The position numbers and the translations under genes were made by a program. From a virus (Duplodnaviria > Heunggongvirae > Uroviricota > Caudoviricetes), in IMG/VR virus record IMGVR_UViG_2526164598_000014: DNA of 49,244 nucleotides. The stretch is one strand, 5' to 3'. The notes below the pieces were generated by a model. It made no database searches, was not told the DNA's origin, and was given only the letters and a program-made list of their open reading frames with translations. Below, piece by piece: positions 1 to 45,251 of this stretch (the first letter of the stretch is position 1; the number at the start of each line of letters is the position of its first letter).

Positions 1-1284
1 TTACTTCTTCGCCTCTGCAACCACTTTACTACCCACGCCGCGGTTATTGTATTCCCACATGCGGTTGTAGTTAGTGTCATTCAGATTGCGCTGTATTTCG
101 TCGTTATCATCTACGCTGCCGGTATTACCCGCAAACGGACGATTAGAGATCACCGCATCGGCCCACGGTTTAGCCGTGTTAAAACCTTCGTTGATGGCGC
201 TATCACGGATCACCACCTGACCGTTGGTATTGGCATCAACATCCAGCGAGCGGCCCAGTTGCGCCACACCATCACCGAAAGCATTGAAACGGCTGTTTAC
301 GGCGAGGAAACCGTAGTAAATGTTGGACAGCGTAGCCGGTGCAAACACATACGCTTCTTGCTGAGTACGTGAGTTCACCACGCGGAATTCGGTGTTATCG
401 AACACCACTGCGCCGCGACCAGAAACGATATCCACATCCCCTTCAATGTAGCTGTTGGTCACCAGCGTACGCGGCTGACGGTTGGTTTCCAGACGGTTCT
501 GCACACCGCTGTTGGTGACAAAGAAGGTGTTCTGACGACCGAGAATGTTAACGTTGTTAATCTGCACCAGGTCACCATCAGTACGCAGTGCCACCGCCGG
601 ATGGTTACCTGCATCTACGCTATCGCCCAGCGTGTTTTCGATGGTCAGATTTTGCAGTTGCAGGCCATTGTTTTGTGACCAGAAGACCGCAGAGCAGAGA
701 ACACCGATACTGTCGCTGCGTTTGCTCTGGCAGCTATCGTACATATACCACGCTGGTTTACCTGGCATATATTTGCCGCGCGGGTTGACGTCGTGACGCC
801 AGTCGGCAGGGCTCATGCCACCATCAAGGGAAAGCCCAATCTTCACATCAATCGGTTTTTCACCTGTACCGTACAGAGTAATTCCACCCGGAGCGGCAGG
901 GACATATACCGTTCCCTGATACTCACCAGGCATCACGGCAATATACTGGCGCTTGTTGGTACGCTTGATAATTGCCGCATCTACCGCCGCCTGAATCGTG
1001 GTATGCGTTACACCTTGAGTGCCCGCCGGGCCGACAACAAAGTCAGGTTGCGCAGGCAGGGTAATCGGGGAAGGATTCCACGCTGCAGCACCTGGTGTCA
1101 GGGATGCAAAATAGTGTTGAGCATCGAAATTCTGCGCTTCTTTTGCCGACAGAATCGGGCGAGAAGAGGTACCAGGCGCGGTTTGATCAGAAGGACGTTG
1201 ATCGGGCGGGGTTGAGCTACAGGCGGTCAGCGTCACGCCAAAAGCCAATGCCAGCGCCAGACGGGAAACTGAAAATGTGTTCAC
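1..1284 (-). CDS. ybhC: YbhC-like outer-membrane lipoprotein (pectinesterase-fold acyl-CoA thioesterase), chromosomal gene flanking attB-lambda
   Basis: 427-aa ORF with lipoprotein signal (LTLTAC lipobox) matching E. coli YbhC as recalled; lies immediately left of the att core. Confidence 0.8.
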   Translation of the reverse strand: MNTFSVSRLALALAFGVTLTACSSTPPDQRPSDQTAPGTSSRPILSAKEAQNFDAQHYFASLTPGAAAWNPSPITLPAQPDFVVGPAGTQGVTHTTIQAAVDAAIIKRTNKRQYIAVMPGEYQGTVYVPAAPGGITLYGTGEKPIDVKIGLSLDGGMSPADWRHDVNPRGKYMPGKPAWYMYDSCQSKRSDSIGVLCSAVFWSQNNGLQLQNLTIENTLGDSVDAGNHPAVALRTDGDLVQINNVNILGRQNTFFVTNSGVQNRLETNRQPRTLVTNSYIEGDVDIVSGRGAVVFDNTEFRVVNSRTQQEAYVFAPATLSNIYYGFLAVNSRFNAFGDGVAQLGRSLDVDANTNGQVVIRDSAINEGFNTAKPWADAVISNRPFAGNTGSVDDNDEIQRNLNDTNYNRMWEYNNRGVGSKVVAEAKK

Positions 1285-1330
1285 AGGTTGCTCCGGGCTA
1301 TGAAATAGAAAAATGAATCCGTTGAAGCCT

Positions 1331-1430
1331 GCTTTTTTATACTAAGTTGGCATTATAAAAAAGCATTGCTTATCAATTTGTTGCAACGAACAGGTCACTA
1401 TCAGTCAAAATAAAATCATTATTTGATTTC
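1331..1430. other. attL: attL: 15-bp lambda att core (1331-1345) plus phage P' arm
   Basis: Exact GCTTTTTTATACTAA core followed by recognisable lambda P' arm sequence (CATTATAAAAAAGCATTGCTTATCAATTTGTTGCAACGAACAGGTCACTATCAGTCAAAATAAAATCATTATTTGATTTC). Confidence 0.9.
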
Positions 1431-2489
1431 AATTTTGTCCCACTCCCTGCCTCTGTCATCACGATACTGTGATGCCATGGTGTCCGACTTATGCCCGAGA
1501 AGATGTTGAGCAAATTTATCGCTTATCTGCTTCTCATAGAGTCTTGCAGACAAACTGCGCAACTCGTGAAAGGTTGGCGGATCCCCTTCGAAGGAGAGAC
1601 CTGATGCTTTTCGTGCGCGCATAAAATACCTTGATACTGTGCCGGATGAAAGCGGTTCACGACGAGTAGATGCAATTATGGTTTCTCCGCCAAGAATCTT
1701 TTTGCATTTATCAAGTGTTTCCTTCATTGATATCCCGAGAGCATCAACATGCAATGTTGTTGGGATGGCAATTTTTACGCCTGTTTTGCTTTGCTCGACA
1801 TAAAGATATCCATCTACGATATCAGACCACTTCATTTCGCATAAATCACCAACTCGCTGCCCGGTAACAACAGCCAGTTCCATTGCAAGTCTAAGCCAAC
1901 ATGGTGATGATTCTGCTGCTTGATAAATTTTCAGGTATTCGTCAGCCGTAAGTCTTGATCTCCTTACCTCTGATTTTGCAGCGCGAGTGGCTGCGACCGG
2001 GTTTGTTGTTATATGGCCTTCAGCCATAGCCTCTCGGAATGCATCGCTCAGTGTTGATCTGATTAACTTGGCTGATGCCGCCTTTCCCTCGTCTATGTAT
2101 CCATTGAGCATTGCCGCAATTTCTTTTGTGGTGATGTCTTCAAGTGGAGCATCAGGCAGACCCCTCCTTATTGCTTTAATTTTGCTCATGTAATTTATGA
2201 GTGTCTTCTGCTTGATTCCTCTGCTGGCCAGGATTTTTTCGTAGCGATCAAGCCATGAATGTAACGTAACGGAATTATCACTGTTGATTCTCGCTGTCAG
2301 AGGCTTGTGTTTGTGTCCTGAAAATAACTCAATGTTGGCCTGTATAGCTTCAGTGATTGCGATTCGCCTGTCTCGGCCTAATCCAAACTCTTTACCCGTC
2401 CTTGGGTCCCTGTAGCAGTAATATCCATTGTTTCTTATATAAAGGTTAGGGGGTAAATCCCGGCGCTCATGACTTCGCCTTCTTCCCAT
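1419..2489 (-). CDS. int: Lambda integrase (tyrosine recombinase)
   Basis: 356-aa ORF matching lambda Int over full length as recalled (MGRRRSHERRDLPPNLYIRNNGYY...). Confidence 0.97.
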   Translation of the reverse strand: MGRRRSHERRDLPPNLYIRNNGYYCYRDPRTGKEFGLGRDRRIAITEAIQANIELFSGHKHKPLTARINSDNSVTLHSWLDRYEKILASRGIKQKTLINYMSKIKAIRRGLPDAPLEDITTKEIAAMLNGYIDEGKAASAKLIRSTLSDAFREAMAEGHITTNPVAATRAAKSEVRRSRLTADEYLKIYQAAESSPCWLRLAMELAVVTGQRVGDLCEMKWSDIVDGYLYVEQSKTGVKIAIPTTLHVDALGISMKETLDKCKKILGGETIIASTRREPLSSGTVSRYFMRARKASGLSFEGDPPTFHELRSLSARLYEKQISDKFAQHLLGHKSDTMASQYRDDRGREWDKIEIK

Positions 2490-2685
2490 TTCTGATCCTC
2501 TTCAAAAGGCTACCTGTTATTGGTCGATTTAAGTCAACCTTTACCGCTGATTCGTGGAACAGATATTCTCTTCCATCCTTAACCGGAGGAGGGAATATCT
2601 TGCATTCGCGCACCCATCGACGAACTGTTTCAAGGCTTCTTGGGCGTCGCTGGCGAGCGTTCCACTCCTGAAGTGTCAAGTACAT
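2467..2685 (-). CDS. xis: Lambda excisionase
   Basis: 72-aa ORF matching lambda Xis (MYLTLQEWNARQRRPRSLETVRRWVRECKIFPPPVKDGREYLFHESAVKVDLNRP...); overlaps int start. Confidence 0.95.
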   Translation of the reverse strand: MYLTLQEWNARQRRPRSLETVRRWVRECKIFPPPVKDGREYLFHESAVKVDLNRPITGSLLKRIRNGKKAKS

Positions 2686-2724
2686 CGCAAAGTCTCCGCA
2701 ATTACACGCAAGAAAAAACCGCCA

Positions 2725-2892
2725 TCAGGCGGCTTGGTGTTCTTTCAGTTCTTCAATTCGAATATTGGTTATGTCTGCATGTGCTATCTGCGCCCATATC
2801 ATCCAGTGGTCATAGCAGTCATTGATGTTCTCTGCTTCGATAACTCTGTTGAATGGTTCTCCATTCCATTCACCTGTGACTCGGAAGTGCAT
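2725..2892 (-). CDS. Small hypothetical protein (55 aa, MHFRVTGEWNGEPFNRVIEAENINDCYDHWMIWAQIAHADITNIRIEELKEHQAA)
   Basis: ATG-initiated ORF below the 60-aa cutoff of the ORF track, co-oriented with xis in the leftward operon; hand-translated from the reverse strand. Confidence 0.3.
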   Translation of the reverse strand: MHFRVTGEWNGEPFNRVIEAENINDCYDHWMIWAQIAHADITNIRIEELKEHQAA

Positions 2893-2974
2893 TTATCATC
2901 TCCATAAAACAAAACTCGCCGTAGCGAGTTCAGATATAATTTCCACCAAAGGCAGTAGTTGCTGATGCTAAGAA

Positions 2975-3403
2975 TTATTCAATATCTATTCCTGTAATAT
3001 CTTTTATCTTTTTCCTTGCAAAGCCTTTTGCTAGTGATTTTGAAACACTTATTAGTGTACTAATTCCCTCATCCTTAAAGTTTGTTTTTATAGTTTGCCA
3101 GACCTCCTTTTGACGCAAGTCAGCAATAAAATCATGCCCTCTTGCTGTCAACCTCAGTGGTACTTCGATCCAACTATATCCAACACCTTCCCCTAACTCG
3201 TTGGACATTATATGACCGAACCCAGGTTTTCCATCAACCCTGACTATTAATTCGTAGTCGCATAATAATCGCATATGGAAAATAAAATTTTGGTCATATC
3301 TATTAAAGCCATTATCCTCTAGTTCACTAAGCATCGTGTCAGGGCCATGAGTTTTTTCGAATGCGATAAGTAGATCTTTTAGATATTGCTGGTCTAATTT
3401 CAT
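2975..3403 (-). CDS. Hypothetical protein, 142 aa, AT-rich cargo gene
   Basis: ATG-initiated ORF (cat at 3401-3403) in AT-rich segment between xis and the ea/red region; no recognisable motif. Confidence 0.55.
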   Translation of the reverse strand: MKLDQQYLKDLLIAFEKTHGPDTMLSELEDNGFNRYDQNFIFHMRLLCDYELIVRVDGKPGFGHIMSNELGEGVGYSWIEVPLRLTARGHDFIADLRQKEVWQTIKTNFKDEGISTLISVSKSLAKGFARKKIKDITGIDIE

Positions 3404-3431
3404 TGCCGCCTCCGTGACATGTCACAGAGAT

Positions 3432-3770
3432 TTATATCATTAATTTTGTTTCGTGCCAGCCTTTGGTCACCCAGCATTGTGAGTCACCATTACACGGGCA
3501 TGAATTAACAGGAACTCTCTCGCCGCACTTACCGCAACGTTTTCTGCTGATCGATTTTATACGCCAGCGCACACGTGCATCATCCTGGCGGCTCAGTAAC
3601 GCGATGTACTCACCAAACTCGTAAGGCGCATGCCTGAAGCGGCGCGTGGCTCAGTTACGATCCAGCATTTCAATTTCCTGAGCATCAAGTACAAGCTCCA
3701 GCTTACGCATACCGGATGATGCTTGCTTGGCTCTCTGATCGACTTTGCGCTCTGCTGATGATTTAGCCAT
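3432..3770 (-). pseudogene. Zinc-ribbon-like ORF interrupted by an in-frame TGA (codon 40 of 112)
   Basis: ATG at 3768-3770, 39 codons, in-frame TGA at 3651-3653, then 72 further codons in the same frame ending TAA 3432-3434; C-terminal part has CGKCG...CPCN...C cysteine pattern. Confidence 0.4.
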
Positions 3771-3966
3771 TCTGCTTTTCCTGCATTAGGAGAAAGACAA
3801 TCATGGCGGCGCGGATACTTCCGGTATCTTTTTACTCGATATTACCCTTCAATGGCACATACAAGAAGAGAGCCATCAACAGGAGTGAGTGAGGAATCGA
3901 CAACCAGCAACGCTTAATTATCTATAGTGTCGTATTTGCTTCATAAAATATGGCGAATAACACAAA

Positions 3967-3996
3967 GCCCGCAGCAGCTCATTGTGCGGGCTTTTC
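3967..3996. terminator. Hairpin GCCCGCA-N11-TGCGGGC followed by TTTTCTT; putative intrinsic terminator
   Basis: Stem-loop 3967-3991 plus T-run read directly from sequence; lies downstream of the 204-aa gene. Confidence 0.4.
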
Positions 3997-4063
3997 TTAT
4001 ACATACTTCCTAGAGATAATTCTATGGAGGCATTAAATTAATACTGTCATTGGTAATATCATA

Positions 4064-4678
4064 TTATCTAAAAGTCTTTCCACTTTTAACGTCTAGGTAT
4101 ATTCTGTTCGACAACGTCATTCCTCCGCAATATGTGAAATAGATGTTTTTCCCCTTATTGCTTGATGCCATCCACCCTCCGATTTCCTTAAAGTCGCTTT
4201 CCGTGCAGACCCCTTCGTTTATTAACTTCCTAGCTGCCGAAGAAAACTCTTTTTTGTATATACGGTAGTCATCAGATCCTTTGATTAAAGTATCATCTCC
4301 GCTCGCATTTTCAGCAGGATCTGATGGCCTTTCACTGCTAAGATCACTAAGTTTAACCCATTCTGAAAACTTGCCATTGACGATTCCGTTTTTTCTTGTG
4401 CAGGATTTATTACCTTCTTTAATATATTCGCTTTCCCCTCCCACACATGAGGCTGAATATGGCTCAGTTATACGAACCCATTCACCTTTTTTTTCTAGAA
4501 AATCTACGCCTTCCCTGAAAAATAGTTTCCCAGCCACTCCGCATTTACTTGAAGGGCAGGTATGTCTTTCCGTTCGATCAACAACAACCCAAAGTCTTGA
4601 TTCATTTTTTGCCATTGCCGATGGTATTTGAGATGAGACAATTAACGTAAGCCCTAAAATTAGTATTGATTTTTTCAT
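4064..4678 (-). CDS. Secreted hypothetical protein, 204 aa, Sec signal peptide, multiple Cys
   Basis: N-terminus MKKSILILGLTLIVSSQIPSAMA is a typical signal peptide; mature part has 8 cysteines; AT-rich context. Confidence 0.6.
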   Translation of the reverse strand: MKKSILILGLTLIVSSQIPSAMAKNESRLWVVVDRTERHTCPSSKCGVAGKLFFREGVDFLEKKGEWVRITEPYSASCVGGESEYIKEGNKSCTRKNGIVNGKFSEWVKLSDLSSERPSDPAENASGDDTLIKGSDDYRIYKKEFSSAARKLINEGVCTESDFKEIGGWMASSNKGKNIYFTYCGGMTLSNRIYLDVKSGKTFR

Positions 4679-4976
4679 TGTAATTTCCTTTTACTTTTTA
4701 CAAAGCGTTTAATCATGGCTGATTATCTTTAAGCGTAGTAACAGCCTTGTGCGAAACATGTTACCAAATCGCCATTTCAGTGTATCCGCAGTTAGGCTGC
4801 CACTTCAAGGATTCCTAATTACATGGTACGTAAGCGTAAAATCCCGTTGGTTGTCGGGTAATAACTCTGATCAAATCTCCCTTGTCTTTTGCTCTTACGT
4901 ATGCAGCTCTTGTGTATTCAACCCAGGCCTCCAGTTCAGCAATACGCTTACTTCCATCCGAGATAACACCTTCTAC

Positions 4977-5228
4977 TCACGCTGCTCGTTGAGTTTTGAT
5001 TTTTGCTGTCTCCAGCTCAACACGCAGTTTCCTCACCGTTAGCGCAATATCCTCGTTCTCCTGGTCGCGGCGTTTGATGTACTGCTGGTTTCTTTCCCGT
5101 TCATCCAGCAGTGTCAGCACAATCGATGGTGTTACCAGCTCATGGAAAAGGTCCGCGTCAAATCCCCAGTTGTCATGCATTGCCTGCTCTGCCGCTTCAC
5201 GCAGTGCCTGAGAGTGAATTACGCTCAC
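4977..5228 (-). CDS. Hypothetical early-left (ea region) protein, 83 aa
   Basis: ORF in leftward pL operon, 4-nt overlap with upstream TraR-like gene. Confidence 0.55.
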   Translation of the reverse strand: MSVIHSQALREAAEQAMHDNWGFDADLFHELVTPSIVLTLLDERERNQQYIKRRDQENEDIALTVRKLRVELETAKIKTQRAA

Positions 5229-5446
5229 TTCGAACCTCTCTGTTTACTGATAAGTTCCAGATCCTCCTGGCAACTTGCACAAGTCCGACAACCCTGAACG
5301 GCCAGGCGTCTTCGTTCATCTATCGGATCGCCACACTCACAACAATGAGTGGCAGATATAGCCTGGTGGTTCAGGCGGCGCATTTTTATTGCTGTGTTGC
5401 GCTGTAATTCTTCAATTTCTGATGCTGAATCAATGATGTCTGCCAT
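5225..5446 (-). CDS. TraR/DksA-family C4 zinc-finger protein, 73 aa
   Basis: CxxC-N17-CxxC pattern (CCECGDPIDERRRLAVQGCRTCASC) typical of the phage TraR/DksA family. Confidence 0.7.
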   Translation of the reverse strand: MADIIDSASEIEELQRNTAIKMRRLNHQAISATHCCECGDPIDERRRLAVQGCRTCASCQEDLELISKQRGSK

Positions 5447-5544
5447 CTTTCATTAATCCCTGAATTGTTGGTTAATACGCTTGAGGGTGAATGCGAATAA
5501 TAAAAAAGGAGCCTGTAGCTCCCTGATGATTTTGCTTTTCATGT

Positions 5545-5760
5545 TCACCGTTCCTTAAAAACGCCGTTTAACATGCCGATTGCTAGGCTTAAATGAGTCG
5601 GTGTGAATCCCATCAGCGTTACCGTTTCGCGGTGCTTCTTCAGTACGCTACGGCAAATGTCATCGACGTTTTTATCCGGAAACTGCTGTCTGGCTTTTTT
5701 GATTTCAGAATTAGCCTGACGGGCAATGCTGCGAAGGGCGTTTTCCTGCTGAGGTGTCAC
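5545..5760 (-). CDS. Hypothetical protein, about 71 aa from GTG start (ORF track gives 5545-5826)
   Basis: GTG at 5758-5760 overlaps the TGA of the upstream 27-codon ORF (GTGA); the longer 93-aa reading from 5826 overlaps that ORF out of frame. Confidence 0.4.
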   Translation of the reverse strand: MTPQQENALRSIARQANSEIKKARQQFPDKNVDDICRSVLKKHRETVTLMGFTPTHLSLAIGMLNGVFKER

Positions 5761-5840
5761 TGAACAAGCCCCATGTCGGCAAGCATAAGCACACAGAATA
5801 TGAAGCCCGCTGCCAGAAAAATGCATTCAGTGGTTGTCAT
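5757..5840 (-). CDS. Small hydrophobic peptide, 27 aa (MTTTECIFLAAGFIFCVLMLADMGLVQ)
   Basis: ATG at 5838-5840 overlaps stop of upstream 63-aa gene (ATGA), stop overlaps GTG of downstream ORF; single predicted TM helix. Confidence 0.3.
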   Translation of the reverse strand: MTTTECIFLAAGFIFCVLMLADMGLVQ

Positions 5841-6028
5841 ACCTGGTCTCTCTCATCTGCTTCTGCTTTCGCCACCATCATTTCCAGTTTTTGTGAAAGG
5901 GATGTGGCTAACGTATGAAATTCTTCGTCTGTTTCTACTGGTATTGGCACAAACCTGATTCCAATTTGAGCAAGGCTATGTGCCATCTCGATACTCGTTC
6001 TTAACTCAACAGGAGATGCTTTGTGCAT
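5837..6028 (-). CDS. Small early-left protein, 63 aa (lambda orf63-like by position)
   Basis: ORF directly downstream of exo side in pL operon; assignment by position and size only. Confidence 0.5.
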   Translation of the reverse strand: MHKASPVELRTSIEMAHSLAQIGIRFVPIPVETDEEFHTLATSLSQKLEMMVAKAEADERDQV

Positions 6029-6189
6029 ACAGCCCCTCGTTTATTATTTATCTCCTCAGCCAGCCGCTGTGCTTTCAGTGGATTTCGGATAACAGAAAGG
6101 CCGGGAAATACCCAGCCTCGCTTTGTAACGGAGTAGACGAAAGTGATTGCGCCTACCCGGATATTATCGTGAGGATGCGTCATCGCCAT
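6001..6189 (-). CDS. Small early-left protein, 62 aa (lambda orf60a-like by position)
   Basis: ORF immediately downstream of exo, overlapping its stop; assignment by position and size only. Confidence 0.5.
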
Positions 6190-6860
6190 TGCTCCCCAAA
6201 TACAAAACCAATTTCAGCCAGTGCCTCGTCCATTTTTTCGATGAACTCCGGCACCATCTCGTCAAAACTCGCCATGTACTTTTCATCCCGCTCAACCACG
6301 ACATAATGCAGTCCTTCACGCTTCATACGCGGGTCATAGTTGGCAAAGTACCAGGCATCTTTACGTGTCACCCACATGCTGTACTGCACCTGGGCCATGT
6401 AAGCCGACTTTATGGCCTCGAAACCACCGAGCCGGAACTTCATGAAATCCCGGGAGGTAAACGGGCATTTCAGCTCAAGGCCATTGCCGTCACTGCATAA
6501 ACCATCGGGAGAGCAGGCGGTGCGCATACTTTCGTCGCGATAGATGATCGGGGATTCAGTAACATTCACGCCGGAAGTGAATTCAAACAGGGTTCTGGCG
6601 TCGTTCTCGTACTGTTTTCCCCAGGCCAGCGCCTTAGCATTAACTTCCGGAGCCACACCGGTGCAAACCTCAGCCAGCAGGGTGTGGAAGTAGGACATTT
6701 TCATGTCAGGCCACTTCTTTCCTGAGCGGGGCTTTGCTATCACGTTGTGAACTTCTGAAGCGGTGATGACGCCGAGCCGTAATTTGTGCCATGCATCATC
6801 CCCCTGTTCGACAGCTCTCACGTCGATCCCGGTACGCTGCAGGATAATGTCCGGTGTCAT
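6180..6860 (-). CDS. exo: Lambda exonuclease (Red alpha)
   Basis: 226-aa ORF matching lambda Exo as recalled. Confidence 0.96.
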
Positions 6861-7642
6861 GCTGCCACCTTCTGCTCAGTGGCTTTCTGTTTCAGGAATC
6901 CGAGAGCTTTCACTGCTTCGACCTGTGTCAGTTCTGACGATGCGCGAATGTCGCGGCGAAATATCTGGGAACAGAGCGGCAATAAGTCGTCATCCCATGT
7001 TTTATCCAGGGCAATCAGCAGAGTGTTAATCTCCTGCATGGTTTCATCGTTAACCGGAGTGATGTCGCGTTCCGGCTGACGTTCTGCAGTGTATGCGGTA
7101 TTTTCGACAATGCGCTCGGCTTCATCCTTGTCATAGATACCAGCAAATCCGAAGGCCAGACGGGCACACTGAATCATGGCTTTATGACGTAACATCCGTT
7201 TGGGATGCGACTGCCACGGCCCCGTGATTTCTCTGCCTTCGCGGGTTTTGAATGGTTCGCGGCGGCATTCATCCATCCACTCGGTAACGCAGATCGGATG
7301 ATTACGGTCCTTGCGGTAAATCCGGCATGTGCAGGATTCATTGTCCTGCTCAAAGTCCATGCCATCAAACTGCTGGTTTTCATTGATGATACGGGACCAG
7401 CCATCAACGCCCACCACCGGAACGATGCCGTTCTGCTTGTCAGGGAAGGCGTAAATTTCTTTCGTCCACGGATTAAGGCCGTACTGGTTGGCGACGATCA
7501 ACAATGCGATGAACTGCGCATCGCTGGCATCGCCTTTAAATGCCGTCTGGCGAAGAGTGGTGATCAGTTCCTGTGGGTCGACAGAATCCATGCCGACACG
7601 TTCAGCCAGCTTCCCAGCCAGCGTTGCGAGTGCTGTACTCAT
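6857..7642 (-). CDS. bet: Lambda Bet single-strand annealing protein (Red beta)
   Basis: 261-aa ORF matching lambda Bet as recalled ([48 protein letters not shown]...). Confidence 0.96.
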
Positions 7643-7647
7643 CCGTT

Positions 7648-8064
7648 TTATACCTCTGAATCAATATCAACCTGATGGTGAGCAATGGTTTCAACCATGT
7701 ACCGGATGTGTTCTGCCATGCGCTCCTGAAACTCAACATCGTCATCAAACGCACGGGTAATGGCTTTTTTGCTGGCCCCGTGGCGTTGCAAATGATCGAT
7801 GCATAGCGATTCAAACAGGTGCTGGGGCAGGCCTTTTTCCATGTCGTCTGCCAGTTCTGCCTCTTTCTCTTCACGGGCGATCTGCTGGTAGTGACGCGCC
7901 CAGCTCTGAGCCTCAAGACGATCCTGAATGTAATAAGCGTTCATGGCTGAACTCCTGAAATAGCTGTGAAAATATCGCCCGCGAAATGCCAGGCTGATTA
8001 GGAAAACAGGAAAGGGGGTTAGTGAATGCTTTTGCTTGATCTCAGTTTCAGCATTAATATCCAT
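7648..8064 (-). CDS. gam: Lambda Gam RecBCD inhibitor
   Basis: 138-aa ORF matching lambda Gam as recalled. Confidence 0.95.
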
Positions 8065-8162
8065 TTTTTATAAGCGTCGACGGCTTCACGAAACATCTTT
8101 TCATCGCCAATAAAAGTGGCGATAGTGAATTTAGTCTGGATAGCCATAAGTGTTTGATCCAT
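8019..8162 (-). CDS. kil: Lambda Kil host division inhibitor (47 aa)
   Basis: Internal ATG at 8160-8162 gives [47 protein letters not shown] matching lambda Kil. Confidence 0.85.
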
Positions 8163-8295
8163 TCTTTGGGACTCCTGGCTGATTAAGTATGTCGATAAGG
8201 CGTTTCCATCCGTCACGTAATTTACGGGTGATTCGTTCAAGTAAAGATTCGGAAGGGCAGCCAGCAACAGGCCACCCTGCAATGGCATATTGCAT
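8131..8295 (-). CDS. cIII: Lambda CIII (FtsH inhibitor, 54 aa)
   Basis: Hand translation from ATG 8293-8295: [54 protein letters not shown]; below ORF-track size cutoff. Confidence 0.9.
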   Translation of the reverse strand: MQYAIAGWPVAGCPSESLLERITRKLRDGWKRLIDILNQPGVPKNGSNTYGYPD

Positions 8296-8367
8296 GGTGT
8301 GCTCCTTATTTATACATAACGAAAAACGCCTCGAGTGAAGCGTTATTGGTATGCGGTAACGCAGCGC

Positions 8368-9630: not shown

Positions 9631-10493
9631 GCTTAGTCAGCCGTTGTCTCCGGGTGTCGCGTGCGCAGTTGCACGTAATTCTCAGACGAACCGATGACTG
9701 GAAAGATGGTCGCCGCAGCCGTCACTCAGATGATACGGATGTGCTTCTCCGTATACACCATGTTATCGGAGAGCTGCCCACGTATGGTTATCGTCGGGTA
9801 TGGGCGCTGCTTCGCAGACAGGCCGAACTTGATGGTATGCCTGCGATCAATGCCAAACGTGTTTACCGGATCATGCGCCAGAATGCGCTGTTGCTTGAGC
9901 GAAAAACCGCTGTACCGCCATCGAAACGGGCACATACTGGCAAAGTGGCCGTGAAAGAAAGCAATCAACGATGGTGCTCTGACGGGTTCGAGTTCCGCTG
10001 TGATAACGGAGAAAAACTGCGAGTCACGTTCGCGCTGGACTGCTGTGACCGTGAGGCACTGCACTGGGCAGTCACTACGGGCGGCTTCGACAGTGAAACA
10101 GTACAGGACGTAATGCTGGGAGCGGTGGAACGCCGCTTCGGCAACGAGCTTCCGGCGTCTCCAGTAGAGTGGCTGACGGATAATGGTTCATGCTACCGGG
10201 CTAATGAAACACGGCAGTTTGCCCGGATGTTGGGGCTTGAACCGAAGAACACGGCGGTGCGGAGTCCGGAGAGTAACGGCATAGCAGAGAGCTTCGTGAA
10301 AACGATAAAGCGTGACTACATCAGTATCATGCCTAAACCAGACGGGTTAACGGCAGCAAAGAACCTTGCAGAGGCGTTCGAGCATTATAACGAATGGCAT
10401 CCGCATAGTGCACTGGGTTATCGCTCGCCACGGGAATATCTGCGGCAGCAGGCCAGTAATGGGTTAAGTGATAACAGGTGTCTGGAAATATAG
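9588..10493 (+). CDS. insD: IS2 InsD (orfB, DDE transposase catalytic part)
   Basis: 301-aa ORF matching IS2 InsD as recalled; overlaps insC in -1 frame as expected for the fusion transposase. Confidence 0.9.
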
Positions 10494-10668
10494 GGGCAAA
10501 TCCACTCTTCAAATTCTTCTTCCATATATCACCTTAAATAGTGGATTGCGGTAGTAAAGATTGTGCCTGTCTTTTAACCACATCAGGCTCGGTGGTTCTC
10601 GTGTACCCCTACAGCGAGAAATCGGATAAACTCTATTCACCCCTACAGAGAGCAAAAGAGAAACGCCG

Positions 10669-11250
10669 ATGAACAACTCATGGTGGCAGGAACTAATGCA
10701 TTTTTTCCTGCAAGGAATGACACTTAAACAGTTGATTCATATGCTAATCATCCTGATCATATTGATTATTGTTATGCCGGTAAGCGTAAAAGAATGGATA
10801 AACCTGCATAATCCAGAAATCCTTCCTTATTATTGGATGTATTACATCCTGTTGTTCTGCGTTAGCTATGTGCTTAACGGTGTTGTTAATTCCGCTTATC
10901 ACGCTGTGACTGAAAGAATTGAGGTATCCGCTGCTCAGAAGCGCAAATCTAAAGAAGAAAAATATGTGCAAGATTTGTTTGATTCGTTAACTCTTGGAGA
11001 AAGAGCGTATTTGGCATTCGCTGTAGCCGCGAATAACCAGCTAAAGACAGAAAAGGGAAGCCCTGAAGCAATCTCATTGCTCGAAAAAGGGCTTCTTATT
11101 CGGATACCTTCTGCTACTGGATATCCTGAAATCGACCGTTTTGTTATCCCGGAACGCTATAGAAATGAGTGCTACATTCGGTTTGCCGGGAAGGCAGACA
11201 GCCTTATGGATGAACTTATCGCTCAGGATAAGCATGGCAAAAACAAGTAA
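10669..11250 (+). CDS. sieB: SieB-like superinfection exclusion membrane protein, 193 aa
   Basis: Rightward gene embedded antisense in pL operon between ral and N as in lambda; two hydrophobic segments; AT-rich. Confidence 0.6.
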   Translation: MNNSWWQELMHFFLQGMTLKQLIHMLIILIILIIVMPVSVKEWINLHNPEILPYYWMYYILLFCVSYVLNGVVNSAYHAVTERIEVSAAQKRKSKEEKYVQDLFDSLTLGERAYLAFAVAANNQLKTEKGSPEAISLLEKGLLIRIPSATGYPEIDRFVIPERYRNECYIRFAGKADSLMDELIAQDKHGKNK

Positions 11251-11266
11251 TTAGCAAATGAATTTA

Positions 11267-11539
11267 TCATCTCGCCGTCAGTTGTTTTGATTTCCGGTAG
11301 CCTGCCGCGTAAAGAGCTACGTTCGGAAGACAAGTTGAACCTTCATATTTTCTGGTCAACGTTGTCAGAGTTATCACTTCTGCTCTCATTGCTGGTTTGC
11401 GCTTGCATTGCAAGACCACTCGTGAAGGGGTTGGCCTGTGTAGCTTGTCGGAGCTGATCGCCTCCTGACTTTGCAGATTTGCGCGACGAGCTCTACGGCG
11501 AGAAGCTGCGGTGCCTTTAAATTCTGTTTTTCTGGACAT
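11267..11539 (-). CDS. N: N-type transcription antiterminator, non-lambda allele, 90 aa from ATG 11537-11539
   Basis: Arginine-rich motif near N-terminus (TAASRRRARRANLQ), strong RBS GGGAGG 5 nt upstream, position right of pL/nutL; longer 114-aa ORF in track lacks RBS. Confidence 0.7.
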   Translation of the reverse strand: MSRKTEFKGTAASRRRARRANLQSQEAISSDKLHRPTPSRVVLQCKRKPAMRAEVITLTTLTRKYEGSTCLPNVALYAAGYRKSKQLTAR

Positions 11540-11564
11540 GGATTCCTCCCGAATAAACTTTGGC

Positions 11565-11612
11565 GATGCAATCTCGAAGCTCCTCCTGAGACGATTGCTT
11601 CGGCATTGCATC
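11565..11612 (-). promoter_or_regulatory. Long inverted repeat in N leader (GATGCAAT...ATTGCATC with inner GCTTCG/CGAAGC)
   Basis: Perfect 8-bp outer stem and inner stem read from sequence, 26 nt upstream of N start; analogous in position to the lambda N-leader structure. Confidence 0.4.
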
Positions 11613-11637
11613 CCACAGCTTATGTGGTTGGGTGATC

Positions 11638-11684
11638 TGGCTTTTCAGCCACGTAGTCGAGAGTCGACGTTGTTTAAAGAGCCT
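11638..11684 (-). promoter_or_regulatory. nutL: Putative nutL (boxA-like GGCTCTTTA and boxB hairpin TGGCT-GAAA-AGCCA)
   Basis: On the reverse strand, boxA-like element followed about 25 nt later by a 5-bp stem with GAAA-type loop. Confidence 0.45.
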
Positions 11685-11945
11685 GCCAGTCTGTTCCATT
11701 TGGCTTCCAGCGTCCTGCTGACGGTTAAATAGTACGATATGTACTTTACAAGATCAATACAATTTGTTGTAAGTTGGCGTGGTTTTTTATAACGCTTTGT
11801 ATTTAATAGTGTTGTTTTTTAGCGTGGATGTATTGCCTCGGCGATGTAAGGAGAGATCAGAATTGCGTGGTTTAGTGGGTTGCATCTATTTATTTTTCAA
11901 TAAATACAATTGGTTATGTGTTTTTAGGTGGGGCGATCGTGAGGC

Positions 11946-11977
11946 AAAGAAAACCCGGCGCTGAGGCCGGGTTTTTC
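11946..11977. terminator. Bidirectional intrinsic terminator closing the cI-proximal operon (tImm-like)
   Basis: Hairpin CCCGGC-GCTGAG-GCCGGG at 11954-11971 flanked by A-run and T-run; directly after stop of 258-aa gene. Confidence 0.65.
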
Positions 11978-12753
11978 TAGGCTACCAGAGACTCAATCCA
12001 AGAGTCTCTGGTATGGAATGGCAACACTCGTGCGGTATCATTAAATAGTAGTGATAGTTGCTGTAGCTCAGGTGTTAACCCATCGCTGTCAACTATTACA
12101 AATCTATTGTTTATGTCAGGAACGACCTGACTTAAGTCAACAATCTTCCCAACTGTTGAGTGGGCAGTATTCCATCCCTTACTGCTGGCAAGGCTTACCG
12201 TAAACCCGCGTTTTGGTGGTATTAGTCGAGACTCATTCCTTAGCGTTAACGGAACAGTAATGTTATGCCCACTAATACCTTTCACTTTTTCCTTTAAGGC
12301 TAGTCGCTTCCCAAGCCCTGCTGATTTTAAGTAACTGATTACACATTTTTCGAACTTATCGTCTTTGACCTCAGCATACCAATCAGCAGTTTGGGCGGAT
12401 GCAAGAATCCCACCACGAATAACATTTGCAGTTACCTGTCCAACGGACGACTCATCTGCCCACGCAGATATCTCTCCAGAATCATTTAATGAAATTCCTT
12501 GCGAAGCGAGTGATGACCTAATCAGATCAATTTTCTTTTTAGTCAGGTGGATGCCGCGTGATTCAATATTCATCAATGTATCGCAGTAGTCTGTAACCCT
12601 ATACTGACCACTCATCTCTTGAACGAATACACTTATCTGCTCACAATCATCGTAGTATGTGAAGGGACTAATAACGCGCAGCAACGTGTCGCTCATTGGG
12701 TGGCATTCAAACCCGAGCTTAGATATGACTGTTGAACACGTTACATTTCCCAT
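11977..12753 (-). CDS. Hypothetical protein, 258 aa, second gene of operon in the rexAB slot
   Basis: ATG at 12751-12753; overlaps upstream 180-aa gene by 13 nt; AT-rich; no motif I can recognise. Confidence 0.7.
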   Translation of the reverse strand: MGNVTCSTVISKLGFECHPMSDTLLRVISPFTYYDDCEQISVFVQEMSGQYRVTDYCDTLMNIESRGIHLTKKKIDLIRSSLASQGISLNDSGEISAWADESSVGQVTANVIRGGILASAQTADWYAEVKDDKFEKCVISYLKSAGLGKRLALKEKVKGISGHNITVPLTLRNESRLIPPKRGFTVSLASSKGWNTAHSTVGKIVDLSQVVPDINNRFVIVDSDGLTPELQQLSLLFNDTARVLPFHTRDSWIESLVA

Positions 12754-19587: not shown

Positions 19588-20670
19588 TTAGAACTGGTAA
19601 ACCATACCTACAGCAACGATATCATCGGTAGCAACGCCAGATGCTTTCGTGAAATCGCTCTTATCAATCAGGTTGATTTTGTAATCAACAAAAGTGGACA
19701 TATTTTTGTTGAAGTAATAGGTTGCACCTACATCAATATATTCAACCAGGTCCTGATCACCCCACGCACCCAAGTCTTTTCCTTTAGATTGCAGGTAAGC
19801 AACGGACGGACGCAGACCGAAGTCGAACTGATATTGTGCAACTACTTCGAAGTTTTGTGCTTTGTTGGCAATATGGTTATTACCAAAAACAGTCATGTTC
19901 TGGGTTTCAGAATAGGTGGTAGCCAGATAGATGTTGTTCGCATCATATTTCAGACCAGCTGCCCATACTTCAGCATTTTGACCAGATGCATTCAGGCTGT
20001 TGTTACCGTAGATAACCTGATTATTAGTGCGGTCAGATTTAGCATAGGTTGCACCTACACCGAATCCTTCATACTCATAAGTAGTGGAGAAACCGAAACC
20101 ATCACCATTAGCTTCAGTTACGTCAGTGCGGTCATTTTTACCCTGATACTGAGCAGCAAAGTTCAGACCATCAACCAGACCAAAGAAGTCGTTGTTACGA
20201 TAAGTTGCAACACCAGTGGTGCGACCAGTCATGAACACATCTGTTTGGGTCCAGGTATCGCCACCGAATTCTGGCAGAACGTCAGTCCACGCACCGATGT
20301 CGTATGCTACACCGTAGTTACGGCCGTAATCGATTGAGCCGTAGTCACCGAATTTCAGGCCTGCAAATGCAAGACGGGTTTTGTCTTTGGAGGAACCTTG
20401 AGATTCAGCGCGGTTGCCTTTGAATTCATATTCCCACTGACCGAAACCAGTCAGTTGATCGTTGATTTGGGTTTCACCTTTGAAGCCAAGACGGGCATAA
20501 GTAGTATCACCATCATCTGCATCATTAGAGGAGAAGTAGTGCTTAGCATTAACTTTCCCGTACAGATCCAGCTTGTTACTGTCTTTATTATAAATTTCAG
20601 CTGCCTGAGCAGACATCGCCATCAGTACTGATGCAGCTACAGCAGAAATTGCCACTGTTAATTTTTTCAT
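19588..20670 (-). CDS. nmpC: Phage-borne general porin of the OmpC/OmpF/NmpC family, 360 aa
   Basis: Signal peptide plus C-terminal ...VGMVYQF porin signature; sits between Q and holin on the opposite strand as nmpC does in DLP12. Confidence 0.85.
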
Positions 20671-42429: not shown

Positions 42430-45251
42430 TGAAAAACGTTTATGTGAAACCGCCTCCGGGCGGTTTTGTCGTTTATGGAGCGTGAGGAATGGGTAAAGGC
42501 AGCAGTAAGGGGCATACTCCGCGCGAAGCGAAGGACAACCTGAAGTCCACGCAGTTGCTGAGTGTGATCGATGCCATCAGCGAAGGGCCGGTTGAAGGTC
42601 CGGTGGATGGATTAAAAAGCGTGCTGCTGAACAGTACGCCAGTGCTGGACAGTGAGGGGAATACCAATATCTCCGGCGTCACGGTGGTGTTCCGGGCCGG
42701 TGAGCAGGAGCAGACACCGCCGGAGGGATTTGAATCCTCCGGCTCCGAGACGGTGCTGGGTACGGAAGTGAAATACGACACGCCGATCACCCGGACCATC
42801 ACGTCGGCAAACATTGACCGACTGCGTTTTACCTTCGGCGTGCAGGCACTGGTGGAAACCACCTCAAAGGGGGACAGGAATCCGTCGGAAGTCCGCCTGC
42901 TGGTTCAGATCCAGCGTAATGGTGGCTGGGTGACGGAAAAAGACATCACCATTAAGGGCAAAACCACCTCGCAGTATCTGGCCTCGGTGGTGGTGGGTAA
43001 CCTGCCGCCGCGCCCGTTCAATATACGGATGCGCAGGATGACGCCGGACAGCACCACAGACCAGCTGCAGAACAAAACGCTCTGGTCGTCATACACCGAA
43101 ATCATCGATGTGAAACAGGGCTACCCGAACACGGCACTGGTCGGCGTGCAGGTGGATTCGGAGCAGTTCGGCAGCCAGCAGGTGAGCCGTAATTATCATC
43201 TGCGCGGGCGCATTCTGCAGGTGCCGTCGAACTATAGCCCGCAGACGCGGCAATACAGCGGTATCTGGGACGGAACGTTTAAACCGGCATACAGCAACAA
43301 CATGGCCTGGTGTCTGTGGGATATGCTGACCCATCCGCGCTACGGCATGGGGAAACGTCTTGGTGCGGCGGATGTGGACAAATGGGCGCTGTATGTCATC
43401 GGCCAGTACTGCGACCAGTCAGTGCCGGACGGCTTTGGCGGCACGGAGCCGCGCATCACCTGTAATGCGTACCTGACCACACAGCGCAAGGCGTGGGATG
43501 TGCTCAGTGATTTCTGCTCGGCGATGCGCTGTATGCCGGTATGGAACGGGCAGACGCTGACGTTCGTGCAGGACCGACCATCAGATAAGGTGTGGACCTA
43601 TAACCGCAGTAATGTGGTGATGCCGGATGATGGCGCGCCGTTCCGCTACAGCTTCAGCGCCCTGAAGGACCGCCATAATGCCGTTGAGGTGAACTGGATT
43701 GACCCGGATAACGGCTGGGAGACGGCGACAGAGCTTGTGGAGGACACGCAGGCCATTGCCCGTTACGGTCGTAACGTCACGAAGATGGATGCCTTTGGCT
43801 GTACCAGCCGGGGCAGGCACATCGCGCCGGGCTGTGGCTGATTAAAACAGAACTGCTGGAAACGCAGACCGTGGACTTCAGCGTGGGCGCAGAAGGGCTT
43901 CGCCATGTGCCGGGCGATGTCATTGAAATCTGTGATGATGACTATGCCGGTATCAGCATCGGCGGGCGCGTGCTGGCGGTAAACAGCCAGACCCGGACGC
44001 TGACGCTCGACCGTGAAATCACGCTGCCATTCTCCGGTACCACGCTGATAAGCCTGGTTGACGGAAGTGGCAATCCGGTCAGCGTGGAGGTTCAGTCCGT
44101 CACCGACGGCGTGAAGGTGAAAGTGAGCCGTGTTCCTGACGGCGTTGCTGAATACAGCGTGTGGGGGCTGAAGCTGCCGACGCTGCGCCAGCGCCTGTTC
44201 CGCTGCGTGAGTATCCGTGAGAACGACGACGGCACATATGCCATCACCGCCGTGCAGCATGTACCGGAAAAAGAAGCCATCGTGGATAACGGGGCGCACT
44301 TTGACGGCGACCAGAGCGGCACGGTGAATGGTGTCACGCCGCCAGCGGTGCAGCACCTGACTGCCGAAGTCACCGCAGACAGCGGGGAATATCAGGTGCT
44401 GGCGCGCTGGGACACGCCGAAGGTGGTGAAGGGCGTGAGCTTCCTGCTCCGTCTGACCGTAACAGCGGATGACGGCAGTGAGCGGCTGGTCAGCACGGCC
44501 CGGACGACGGAAACCACTTACCGCTTCACACAACTGGCGCTGGGGAACTACAGGCTGACAGTCCGGGCAGTAAATGCGTGGGGGCAGCAGGGCGATCCGG
44601 CGTCGGTATCGTTCCGGATTGCCGCACCGGCAGCGCCGTCGCGGATTGAGCTGACGCCGGGCTATTTTCAGATAACCGCCACGCCGCATCTTGCGGTTTA
44701 TGATCCGACGGTACAGTTTGAGTTCTGGTTCTCGGAAAAGCGGATTGCGGATATCAGGCAGGTTGAAACCACAGCACGCTATCTTGGCACGGCGCTGTAC
44801 TGGATAGCCGCCAGTATCAATATCAAACCGGGCCATGATTATTACTTTTATATCCGCAGTGTGAACACCGTTGGCAAATCGGCATTCGTGGAGGCTGTTG
44901 GTCAGCCGAGTGATGATGCATCCGGTTATCTGGATTTTTTCAAAGGCGAGATAGGGAAAACCCATCTGGCTCAGGAGCTGTGGACGCAGATTGATAACGG
45001 TCAGCTTGCGCCTGACCTGGCTGAAATCAGGACGTCCATTACGGATGTCAGCAATGAAATCACGCAGACCGTCAATAAGAAACTGGAAAACCAGAGTGCG
45101 GCAATTCAGCAGATACAGAAGGTTCAGGTTGATACAAATAATAACCTGAACAGCATGTGGGCTGTGAAGCTGCAGCAGATGCAGGACGGACGCCTTTATA
45201 TCGCGGGTATTGGTGCCGGTAGTAAGCGGCTCGTCAGAACCGTATTGATAT

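What the first reader, a model, noticed from the sequence alone, without database searches (positions are those of the whole stretch)
3432..3770. Zinc-ribbon ORF split by a single in-frame TGA
A 112-codon reading frame has one in-frame opal codon at 3651-3653; both halves look like protein, and the C-terminal half has a CGKCG...CPCN...C metal-binding pattern. This is either a recent nonsense mutation (consistent with the general decay of this prophage) or, less likely, a recoded stop.
Basis: seen in the sequence. Interest (0 to 1): 0.4.

Follow-up and report, generated by a model that had tools for sequence, protein, structure and literature searches.

The report
Phage regulator gene killed by nonsense mutation
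This is an ordinary dead gene: a small prophage gene for a putative DNA-binding, zinc-binding regulator in which a conserved cysteine codon (TGT) mutated to a stop codon (TGA), an allele shared by many E. coli strains and already flagged as a pseudogene in public annotation.

Summary
The frame belongs to a 112-aa phage protein family (PHROG 536 "transcriptional regulator"; epsilon15 gp49, phiV10 p55). All 39 close homologs are uninterrupted and have Cys (TGT) at codon 40. So the stop is a single TGT>TGA change.

It is not a recoded stop. There is no SECIS-like hairpin and no Rfam hit. Among TGA-bearing alleles, 12 changes are nonsynonymous or nonsense and 4 are synonymous. These include a second stop (W69*) and hits at family-conserved positions (C99Y, G80R/D, R66H). 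That fits neutral decay; intact phage copies show dN/dS of 0.09-0.14.

It is not private to this prophage. The TGA-type segment is in 64 of 5,426 complete E. coli genomes, including prophages that keep immunity and replication genes. NCBI's annotation pipeline (PGAP) marks it "internal stop" in all ten genomes I opened.

The window's own prophage is defective (tail gene J frameshifted and split by an IS66 element).

Verdict: an ordinary pseudogene, already known, of low interest.

The parts
3432..3770 (-). Whole pseudogene: 112-codon frame (39 codons + TGA + 72 codons) plus the terminal TAA. It is homologous to phage epsilon15 gp49, phiV10 p55 and TL-2011b gp20 (PHROG 536).
   Evidence: The identical sequence in ATCC 8739 is annotated by PGAP as a pseudogene, 'hypothetical protein, internal stop'.
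3651..3653 (-). In-frame opal codon 40 (TGA). It replaces the TGT (Cys) found in relatives through a single third-position T>A change.
   Evidence: DNA alignment. Cys in 39 of 39 close homologs. Allele table.
3654..3770 (-). The 39-codon N-terminal remnant, the only part expected to be translated. In the model of the intact homolog P0005 (85% identical), the corresponding residues cover helix 5-19, an extended segment 21-29 and most of helix 30-42. The remnant lacks the equivalents of helix 52-74 and the Cys cluster.
   Evidence: Gene callers report this exact 39-aa product on at least 804 contigs.
3432..3650 (-). The 72 codons downstream of the stop plus TAA. They are untranslated unless the stop is read through. 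In sister alleles this part carries W69*, R66H, G80R, G80D, C99Y, R47H and A48S.
3474..3536 (-). Cys cluster, codons 79-99 (CGKCG-x8-CPC-x5-C), the putative zinc-binding knuckle of the intact protein.
   Evidence: C79 and C82 are invariant and C99 is present in 56 of 57 family members. Metal binding is inferred, not shown.
3432..3572 (-). Mechanical 46-codon GTG ORF (MRWRIKSISRKRCGKCG...) inside the downstream part. It is called as a separate 'transcriptional regulator' in phage Chlobot even though Chlobot's full 112-codon frame is intact.
   Evidence: There is no evidence that it is an independent gene.
3779..3828 (-). Scar of the 3' end of a ninX (DUF2591) gene directly upstream of the ATG. 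In phage TL-2011b an intact ninX overlaps the start of the intact regulator gene.
   Evidence: Positions 3-52 of the query match annotated NinX genes at 90% identity. Alignment. TL-2011b annotation.
3845..3910 (-). Fragment of an S24-peptidase / UmuD-like gene (LLVVDSSLTPVDGSLLVCAIEG*), another gene remnant in this mosaic junction.
   Evidence: PGAP labels it 'DNA repair protein, incomplete' in ATCC 8739. An 82-codon version exists in strain 97.3. Window translation.

Best explanation
The interval is a pseudogene. Its ancestor encoded a 112-aa phage protein of the epsilon15 gp49 / phiV10 p55 family (PHROG 536, annotated 'transcriptional regulator'). In the structure model this protein has an N-terminal helical part whose best fold matches are ribbon-helix-helix proteins, followed by a C-terminal Cys-rich knuckle. 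A copy of this gene, together with the tail of the neighbouring ninX gene, was recombined into the int-xis-proximal, non-essential part of the early leftward region of a lambda-like phage. There, constraint on the gene appears relaxed (inferred from small counts). A single T>A change turned Cys codon 40 (TGT) into TGA. Translation should now stop after 39 residues, inside the second helix, so the product lacks the third helix and the whole Cys cluster and is most likely inactive (inferred). The allele has since spread with the prophage, by descent and by recombination, through many E. coli strains. Both halves have been accumulating substitutions at a neutral rate. Shown here: the homology, the TGT>TGA change, the allele's distribution, the neutral substitution pattern and the absence of a recoding signal. 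Inferred: loss of function of the truncated product, DNA binding and zinc binding by the intact protein, and the order of the recombination events.
For: (1) TGA aligns with TGT in Chlobot, TL-2011b and phiV10 and with Cys in 39 of 39 close homologs. The homologs are almost all exactly 112 aa, and in phages the gene is one uninterrupted CDS. (2) Intact copies evolve under purifying selection, with pairwise dN/dS of 0.09-0.14. Among TGA alleles there are 11 nonsynonymous or nonsense changes against 4 synonymous, plus G80D in L023. These include a second stop (W69*) and hits at family-conserved positions (K3R, R66H, G80R, C99Y). For 11 or more of 15, P = 2e-4 to 2e-3 under omega 0.10-0.14 and 0.79 under omega 1. 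(3) The RNA downstream of the UGA folds no better than shuffled sequence (z = +0.57), and the permissive Rfam scan returned only two chance-level snoRNA hits, on the opposite strand. (4) The TGA-type 55-nt segment is in 64 of 5,426 complete genomes. All ten such genomes opened have the stop and the PGAP note 'internal stop'. The exact 39-aa fragment is on at least 804 contigs. (5) The AlphaFold2 model of the intact homolog (pLDDT 91.3) puts residue 40 inside helix 30-42, with helix 52-74 and the Cys cluster after it. (6) The neighbourhood is a junkyard of gene fragments: a umuD-like piece and a ninX tail. The window's prophage has a broken J gene.
Against: The allele is common and old enough to have diversified, which would also be expected if the truncated form were tolerated or useful. 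The substitution counts are small (about 16 events from roughly 18 sampled genomes), some may have moved between alleles by recombination, and polarity rests on two outgroups. No expression data were available. E. coli has the selenocysteine machinery (general knowledge, not tested here), and UGA is the leakiest stop codon (also general knowledge), so trace read-through cannot be excluded by sequence alone.
Confidence: 0.93

Rival explanations
1. Recoded stop. The UGA is decoded as selenocysteine (it replaces a conserved Cys), or read through as Trp by near-cognate tRNA, giving a functional full-length 112-aa protein.
For: UGA sits exactly at a Cys position that is conserved in all 39 close homologs, which is the classic Sec/Cys pattern. 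The downstream frame is still open in the window.
Against: There is no hairpin beyond the shuffle expectation after the UGA (z = +0.57). The apical loop of the best fold lies about 33-39 nt from the UGA, and the flanking sequence is essentially the same as in TGT alleles, so nothing has evolved to serve recoding. There is no Rfam match on the gene strand. Sister TGA alleles carry W69*, C99Y, G80R/D and R66H downstream, and the N:S ratio is neutral. Cys40 is not universal in the wider family (37 of 57).
Confidence: 0.02
2. Gene fission into two functional small genes: a 39-aa N-terminal peptide and a 46-aa zinc-knuckle peptide re-initiated at GTG 3572.
For: Both pieces are called as genes by automatic pipelines. 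A separate 40-position PHROG (34005) matches residues 1-40. An AGGA lies 10 nt upstream of the GTG (read directly from the sequence). The 39-aa sequence is identical in many genomes.
Against: No intact relative is organised as two genes. The stop cuts inside a helix of the predicted fold, so neither piece is a complete domain. Both pieces accumulate nonsynonymous changes: 5 nonsynonymous and 0 synonymous upstream, 7 nonsynonymous or nonsense and 4 synonymous downstream. The downstream changes include loss of the near-invariant C99 and a stop at W69, only two codons into the putative 46-aa ORF. The GTG and the AGGA belong to conserved coding sequence (QDDARV), not to a newly evolved start site.
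Confidence: 0.03
3. Sequencing or assembly error in the window.
For: None.
Against: The identical 339 nt occur in 25 independent complete genome records made with different technologies, and the same TGA is in diverged sub-alleles.
Confidence: 0

Closest known systems
epsilon15 gp49 / phiV10 p55 / TL-2011b gp20 (PHROG 536, 'transcriptional regulator'; RefSeq YP_512310.1, NP_848257.1, YP_007001971.1)
   Same: Same length and co-linear over all 112 positions. The window differs from phiV10 at 36 of 339 nt, and homolog P0005, 85% identical to the repaired window protein, is identical to phiV10 p55. The Cys cluster and the N-terminal basic helix are the same.
   Different: The window copy has TGA at codon 40. 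It sits in the int-xis-proximal early region of a lambda-like prophage, whereas in uetakeviruses and TL-2011b the gene is the last early gene before the terminase. The function of the family has not been tested experimentally as far as I could find.
Intact lambdoid-context alleles (phage Chlobot; E. coli WAT WP_001129736.1)
   Same: Same genomic context (umuD-like fragment, this gene, DUF2513, xis, int) and 97% nucleotide identity.
   Different: These have TGT at codon 40 and are therefore a full ORF. They carry their own nonsynonymous changes at conserved positions (A6T, R8H, Y50C).
Ribbon-helix-helix (CopG/Arc/MetJ) DNA-binding proteins, including E. coli YbfE (NCBIfam NF008671)
DksA/TraR C4 zinc-finger proteins (TraR, YbiI)
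   Same: A long helix followed by a Cys-rich metal knuckle. There are marginal profile hits to YbiI and TraR over positions 48-111 (E = 0.037-0.05).
   Different: There is no hit to Pfam PF01258. The Cys spacing CxxC-x8-CxC-x5-C differs from the CxxC-x17-CxxC that I recall for TraR, a figure from memory that was not checked here.
Bacterial selenoprotein genes (E. coli fdhF type)
   Same: An in-frame UGA at a position that is Cys in homologs.
   Different: There is no SECIS hairpin at the required distance, and the sequence downstream of the UGA is not under constraint.

Membership tests
PHROG 536 / epsilon15 gp49 family | End-to-end match to the family profile | tested here: met
   E = 6.7e-49, residues 1-111 on profile positions 2-114 of 115, with codon 40 read as Cys. 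There are 299 homologs, mostly 112 aa.
PHROG 536 / epsilon15 gp49 family | Uninterrupted reading frame of about 112 codons (a functional member) | tested here: not met
   In-frame TGA at codon 40. It belongs to the family by descent only, as a pseudogene.
PHROG 536 / epsilon15 gp49 family | Conserved Cys cluster (C79, C82, C99) | tested here: met
   The codons are present in the window downstream of the stop. C79 and C82 are invariant and C99 is present in 56 of 57 family members.
Pseudogene (nonsense-inactivated) | The stop replaces a sense codon that is conserved in relatives | tested here: met
   TGT in three aligned phages. Cys in 39 of 39 close homologs.
Pseudogene (nonsense-inactivated) | Relaxed selection after the lesion, with further disabling lesions in sister copies | tested here: met
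   12 nonsynonymous or nonsense changes against 4 synonymous, including W69*, C99Y, G80R/D and R66H. Intact copies show dN/dS of 0.09-0.14. The counts are small.
Pseudogene (nonsense-inactivated) | No full-length product is made | not testable with these tools
   This needs proteomics or a reporter fusion.
Bacterial selenoprotein gene | UGA at a Cys-homologous position | tested here: met
Bacterial selenoprotein gene | SECIS hairpin immediately 3' of the UGA | tested here: not met
   The minimum free energy is -18.9 kcal/mol against a shuffle mean of -20.5 (z = +0.57). The TGT allele folds equally unremarkably. The only Rfam matches up to E = 10 are two chance-level snoRNA hits on the opposite strand.
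Bacterial selenoprotein gene | Purifying selection on codons downstream of the UGA | tested here: not met
   Downstream of the UGA, sister alleles show 7 nonsynonymous or nonsense changes against 4 synonymous, including a second stop and loss of C99.
Ribbon-helix-helix (CopG/Arc/MetJ) superfamily (for the intact protein) | Strand-helix-helix fold recognised by sequence or structure | tested here: inconclusive
DksA/TraR C4 zinc finger (PF01258) | Match to the family model and its Cys spacing | tested here: not met
   There is no PF01258 hit. Only marginal PDB profile hits to TraR and YbiI were found, at E of about 0.04.

The most novel reading that the evidence does not exclude
The truncation is not simply neutral. 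Either the 39-aa N-terminal peptide (basic helix plus half of the putative RHH-like part) has been kept as a small functional product, for example one that interferes with the intact regulator of superinfecting phages. Or low-level UGA read-through supplies a trickle of full-length protein. This would be consistent with the allele's wide spread: 64 complete genomes and more than 800 contigs.
Probability: 0.03. Interest if true: 0.35.

Novelty: already known. Interest (0 to 1): 0.06.

Why it matters
It matters very little biologically. This is one more inactivated accessory gene in a defective lambda-like prophage, and RefSeq already labels the identical sequence 'internal stop'.

There are two small practical points. 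First, the two halves are called as separate 'genes' by many pipelines and have entered protein databases. One example is a 39-aa 'phage protein' seen on at least 804 contigs. Another, probably, is PHROG 34005. A third is a 46-aa 'transcriptional regulator' or 'ubiquitin-binding zinc finger protein'. Users of those databases should read these entries as pseudogene fragments. Second, the intact family (epsilon15 gp49 / phiV10 p55) is widespread in enterobacterial phages, gives a confident structure model, and is still uncharacterised experimentally as far as I could find.

Tried and rejected
(a) I first assumed the window was E. coli ATCC 8739, because the 451 nt around the finding are 100% identical, and I used that genome's annotation for the whole window. 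A direct BLAST showed that only window 1-8328 is co-linear with it. No complete genome in the collection covers more than 75% of window 1-25000. The table therefore describes ATCC 8739, not the window beyond position 8328.

(b) An exact-match scan of the species-representative genomes for the TGA allele found nothing.

(c) Pfam gave no hit for the whole protein or for either half. A PDB sequence search with one protein found nothing.

(d) A literature search for epsilon15 gp49 and phiV10 found no paper on this protein. The vB_EcoP_ZX5 paper (PMC9782041) concerns ORF4, ORF12 and ORF21, described as anti-repressor, integrase and repressor, which gives no sign that it concerns this gene. I read only its abstract and outline.

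(e) Foldseek against the PDB gave no significant match.

(f) Selenocysteine recoding, gene fission and sequencing error were considered and rejected, as set out under the rival explanations.

(g) I did not obtain model coordinates, so I could not check whether Cys40 lies near the Cys cluster.

Full report
**1. What is in the sequence**

The finding is on the minus strand.
- Reverse-complement translation of window 3432-3770 gives ATG (3770), 39 sense codons, TGA (3653-3651), 72 sense codons and TAA (3434-3432).
- The plus strand of the interval is full of stops.
C91-P-C93 ... C99.

**2. It is a real gene relic, not a chance frame**

- With codon 40 read as Cys, the product matches PHROG 536 ('transcriptional regulator') end to end (E = 6.7e-49).
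- It also matches 299 database proteins, nearly all exactly 112 aa.
- Annotated phage members are phiV10 p55, epsilon15 gp49 and TL-2011b gp20, each a single uninterrupted 339-nt CDS. The same holds in a Klebsiella phage and in Salmonella phage PAT1.
- Neither the whole protein nor either half has a Pfam family.

**3. Nature of the stop**

- In a DNA alignment with phages Chlobot, TL-2011b and phiV10, the window's TGA aligns with TGT in all three.
- In a 40-sequence protein alignment, the position is Cys in all 39 homologs.
- In a wider 57-member alignment reaching about 30% identity, it is Cys in 37 of 57. C79 and C82 are invariant and C99 is present in 56 of 57.
- The lesion is therefore a single third-position change, TGT>TGA, at a conserved sense codon.

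**4. Distribution**

- The 339-nt allele is 100% identical in 25 complete E. coli genome records from unrelated sources: ATCC 8739 (three assemblies), five NCTC strains, and isolates from goose, opossum, cattle, pig, chicken and humans.
- A 55-nt probe that can seed only on TGA-type alleles hits 64 of 5,426 complete genomes.
- Ten of these genomes were opened. All have the TGA at codon 40 and carry the PGAP note 'internal stop' (sequences).
- The exact 39-aa N-terminal product is recorded on at least 804 contigs and in 1,453 index blocks of public assemblies.
- Carriers range from the 9-kb remnant in ATCC 8739 to prophages that still have cI, cro, O and P (AH62; L023 and L026).
  - One carrier is a 43-kb circular lambdoid element in strain SZQ1.
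  - One prophage lies next to RND-efflux genes instead of ybhC (L026).
- The mutation therefore predates the decay of any single prophage and is not a sequencing error.

**5. Is the stop recoded?**

- The 72 nt from the UGA onward fold to -18.9 kcal/mol against a mean of -20.5 for shuffled sequences (z = +0.57). The TGT allele of Chlobot is equally unremarkable.
- A permissive Rfam scan of 3300-3950 returned only two chance-level snoRNA hits, on the other strand.
- The sequence flanking the UGA differs from TGT alleles at only a few scattered positions, so nothing has evolved there to serve recoding.
- The most telling evidence is the substitution pattern, polarised with phiV10 and TL-2011b as outgroups.
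  - Changes confined to TGA alleles are A2T, K3R, A5S, A10V, E37D, R47H, A48S, R66H, W69*, G80R and C99Y, against four synonymous sites. G80D in L023 adds one more nonsynonymous change.
  - Several of these hit positions that are invariant or nearly invariant in the family.
  - One allele (FDAARGOS_1248) has acquired a second stop.
  - The probability of 11 or more nonsynonymous among 15 changes is 2e-4 to 2e-3 under the omega of intact copies. It is 0.79 under neutrality.
  - Pairwise dN/dS among intact phage copies is 0.09-0.14.
- Both halves look unconstrained: 5 nonsynonymous and 0 synonymous changes upstream of the stop, and 7 nonsynonymous or nonsense against 4 synonymous downstream.
- This argues against selenocysteine or Trp read-through producing a useful protein. 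It also argues against two functional daughter genes.

**6. What the intact protein probably is**

- AlphaFold2 on a 57-sequence alignment gives a confident model of the intact homolog P0005, which is identical to phiV10 p55 (mean pLDDT 91.3).
  - It has a helix at 5-19, an extended segment at 21-29, helices at 30-42 and 52-74, and then a Cys-rich knuckle.
- Foldseek finds nothing significant.
- There are sub-threshold sequence hints to YbfE, a protein I recall as CopG-like (E = 0.04), and to Pfam RHH_5 and RepB-RCR_reg in 2 of 57 members each.
- Helix 3 plus the Cys region shows marginal profile hits to TraR and YbiI (E of about 0.04).
- I therefore describe the intact protein as a small, probably DNA-binding and probably zinc-binding regulator. 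Membership of the RHH or TraR families is not established.
- Residue 40 lies inside helix 30-42. The 39-residue product lacks helix 3 and the metal site and is most likely inactive (inference).

**7. Surroundings**

- The gene sits in the leftward early region of a lambda-like prophage integrated next to ybhC.
  - On the minus strand the order is bet (6857-7642), exo (6180-6860), several small genes, a 204-aa ORF (4064-4678), this pseudogene, a DUF2513 gene (2975-3403), a 55-aa ORF, xis (2467-2685) and int (1419-2489) (for ORFs from 1419 to about 5550; for the bet and exo ORFs; names by correspondence).
- Immediately upstream lie two other relics.
  - One is the last roughly 50 nt of a ninX gene at 3779-3828. 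It is 90% identical to annotated ninX genes. In TL-2011b, ninX overlaps the start of the intact regulator.
  - The other is a 22-codon piece of an S24/UmuD-like gene at 3845-3910. It is longer in strain 97.3.
- The regulator gene evidently arrived here as part of a recombination patch, away from its usual place just before the terminase genes.
- Even the intact alleles in this lambdoid context carry changes at conserved positions (A6T, R8H, Y50C), which suggests constraint was already relaxed.
- The window's prophage is itself defective.
  - The tail-tip gene J is split by a frameshift (42489-43841 and 43871-45331).
  - J is also interrupted by an IS66-family element at about 45252-47867.
  - The receptor-binding end of J resumes at 47829-48692.

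**8. Provenance correction**

I initially took the window for ATCC 8739. Only window 1-8328 is co-linear with that genome, and no complete genome in the collection covers the window. Conclusions about the finding do not depend on this. The ATCC 8739 annotation is used only for the region that is identical.

**9. Verdict**

- The recoding alternative is rejected as far as sequence evidence can reject it.
- The feature is an ordinary pseudogene that RefSeq already annotates as such.
- The only mildly useful by-products are two. First, the two halves circulate in databases as if they were genes. Second, the parent family remains uncharacterised despite giving a confident structure model.
- Interest is low.

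Noticed in passing
window 3845-3910 (-), extending to about 4048 in relatives (L007 23-268): Remnant of an S24-peptidase / UmuD-like gene. The window keeps 22 codons ending in TAA. Strain 97.3 keeps 82 codons resembling the UmuD N-terminus and core. In phage Chlobot the fragment is open for 105 codons and is annotated 'UmuD-like protein', but most of that ORF is an out-of-frame read through the regulator gene, so the annotation is probably spurious.
   Followed up: partly
window 3779-3828 (-): The 3' end of a ninX (DUF2591) gene is fused directly upstream of the pseudogene's ATG. It looks like a recombination scar showing that the regulator gene was imported together with the tail of its usual upstream neighbour (compare TL-2011b gp19/gp20).
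   Followed up: partly
window 42489-48692: The tail-tip gene J is broken. There is a frameshift between ORFs 42489-43841 and 43871-45331. An IS66-family element is inserted (transposase 45252-46823, TnpB-like 46843-47190 and an HTH ORF 47190-47867, all on the minus strand). The J receptor-binding C-terminus resumes at 47829-48692. The prophage is therefore defective.
   Followed up: partly
window 3654-3770 (-) and PHROG 34005: A separate 40-position PHROG of unknown function matches residues 1-40 (E = 2e-28). This family is probably built from the truncated N-terminal fragments of this very pseudogene allele. The members of the PHROG were not inspected.
   Followed up: no
L011 8783-8950 (AH62), homolog of window 2725-2892 (-): In strain AH62 the neighbouring 55-aa gene between DUF2513 and xis also carries an internal stop according to PGAP. 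This is another sign that this int-proximal block is dispensable.
   Followed up: no
L016 (NZ_CP174001.1, whole record): The 'plasmid' pOHT76-1_1 of strain SZQ1 is a 43-kb circular lambdoid phage genome with terminase, portal, tail, lysis, O/P and Q genes. It carries the TGA allele and has no annotated cI or cro; only a truncated YdaT-like gene lies at that position.
   Followed up: partly
L026 (GCA_964049715.1), 10001-12356 and flanks: The identical TGA allele sits in a prophage whose integrase (357 aa) abuts RND-efflux genes rather than ybhC. The surrounding roughly 7.5 kb is only 95% identical to the window. The allele has therefore moved between prophage backgrounds or insertion sites.
   Followed up: no
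window 1-8328 versus ATCC 8739 (L005): ATCC 8739 carries a 9-kb remnant of the same prophage (int to cIII) with two IS1 copies and everything rightward deleted. The window lacks the IS1 between the Ea22-like fragment and the 204-aa ORF; in its place are about 9 nt (window 4736-4744) that did not align.
   Followed up: partly
window 19588-20670 (-): A 360-aa ORF corresponds to a prophage-borne porin gene (Porin_1, OmpC/Lc-like) in related loci. It lies between the Q antiterminator and the lysis genes, a typical lambdoid moron. The assignment rests on 98% DNA identity to L020 and was not scanned directly.
   Followed up: no
P0005 model, residues 48-111: The long helix plus Cys knuckle of the intact family gives marginal profile hits to TraR and YbiI (DksA/TraR-type zinc-finger proteins; TraR, as I recall, binds RNA polymerase) at E of about 0.04. 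This hints at an alternative mode of action for the family, acting on RNA polymerase rather than on DNA.
   Followed up: no
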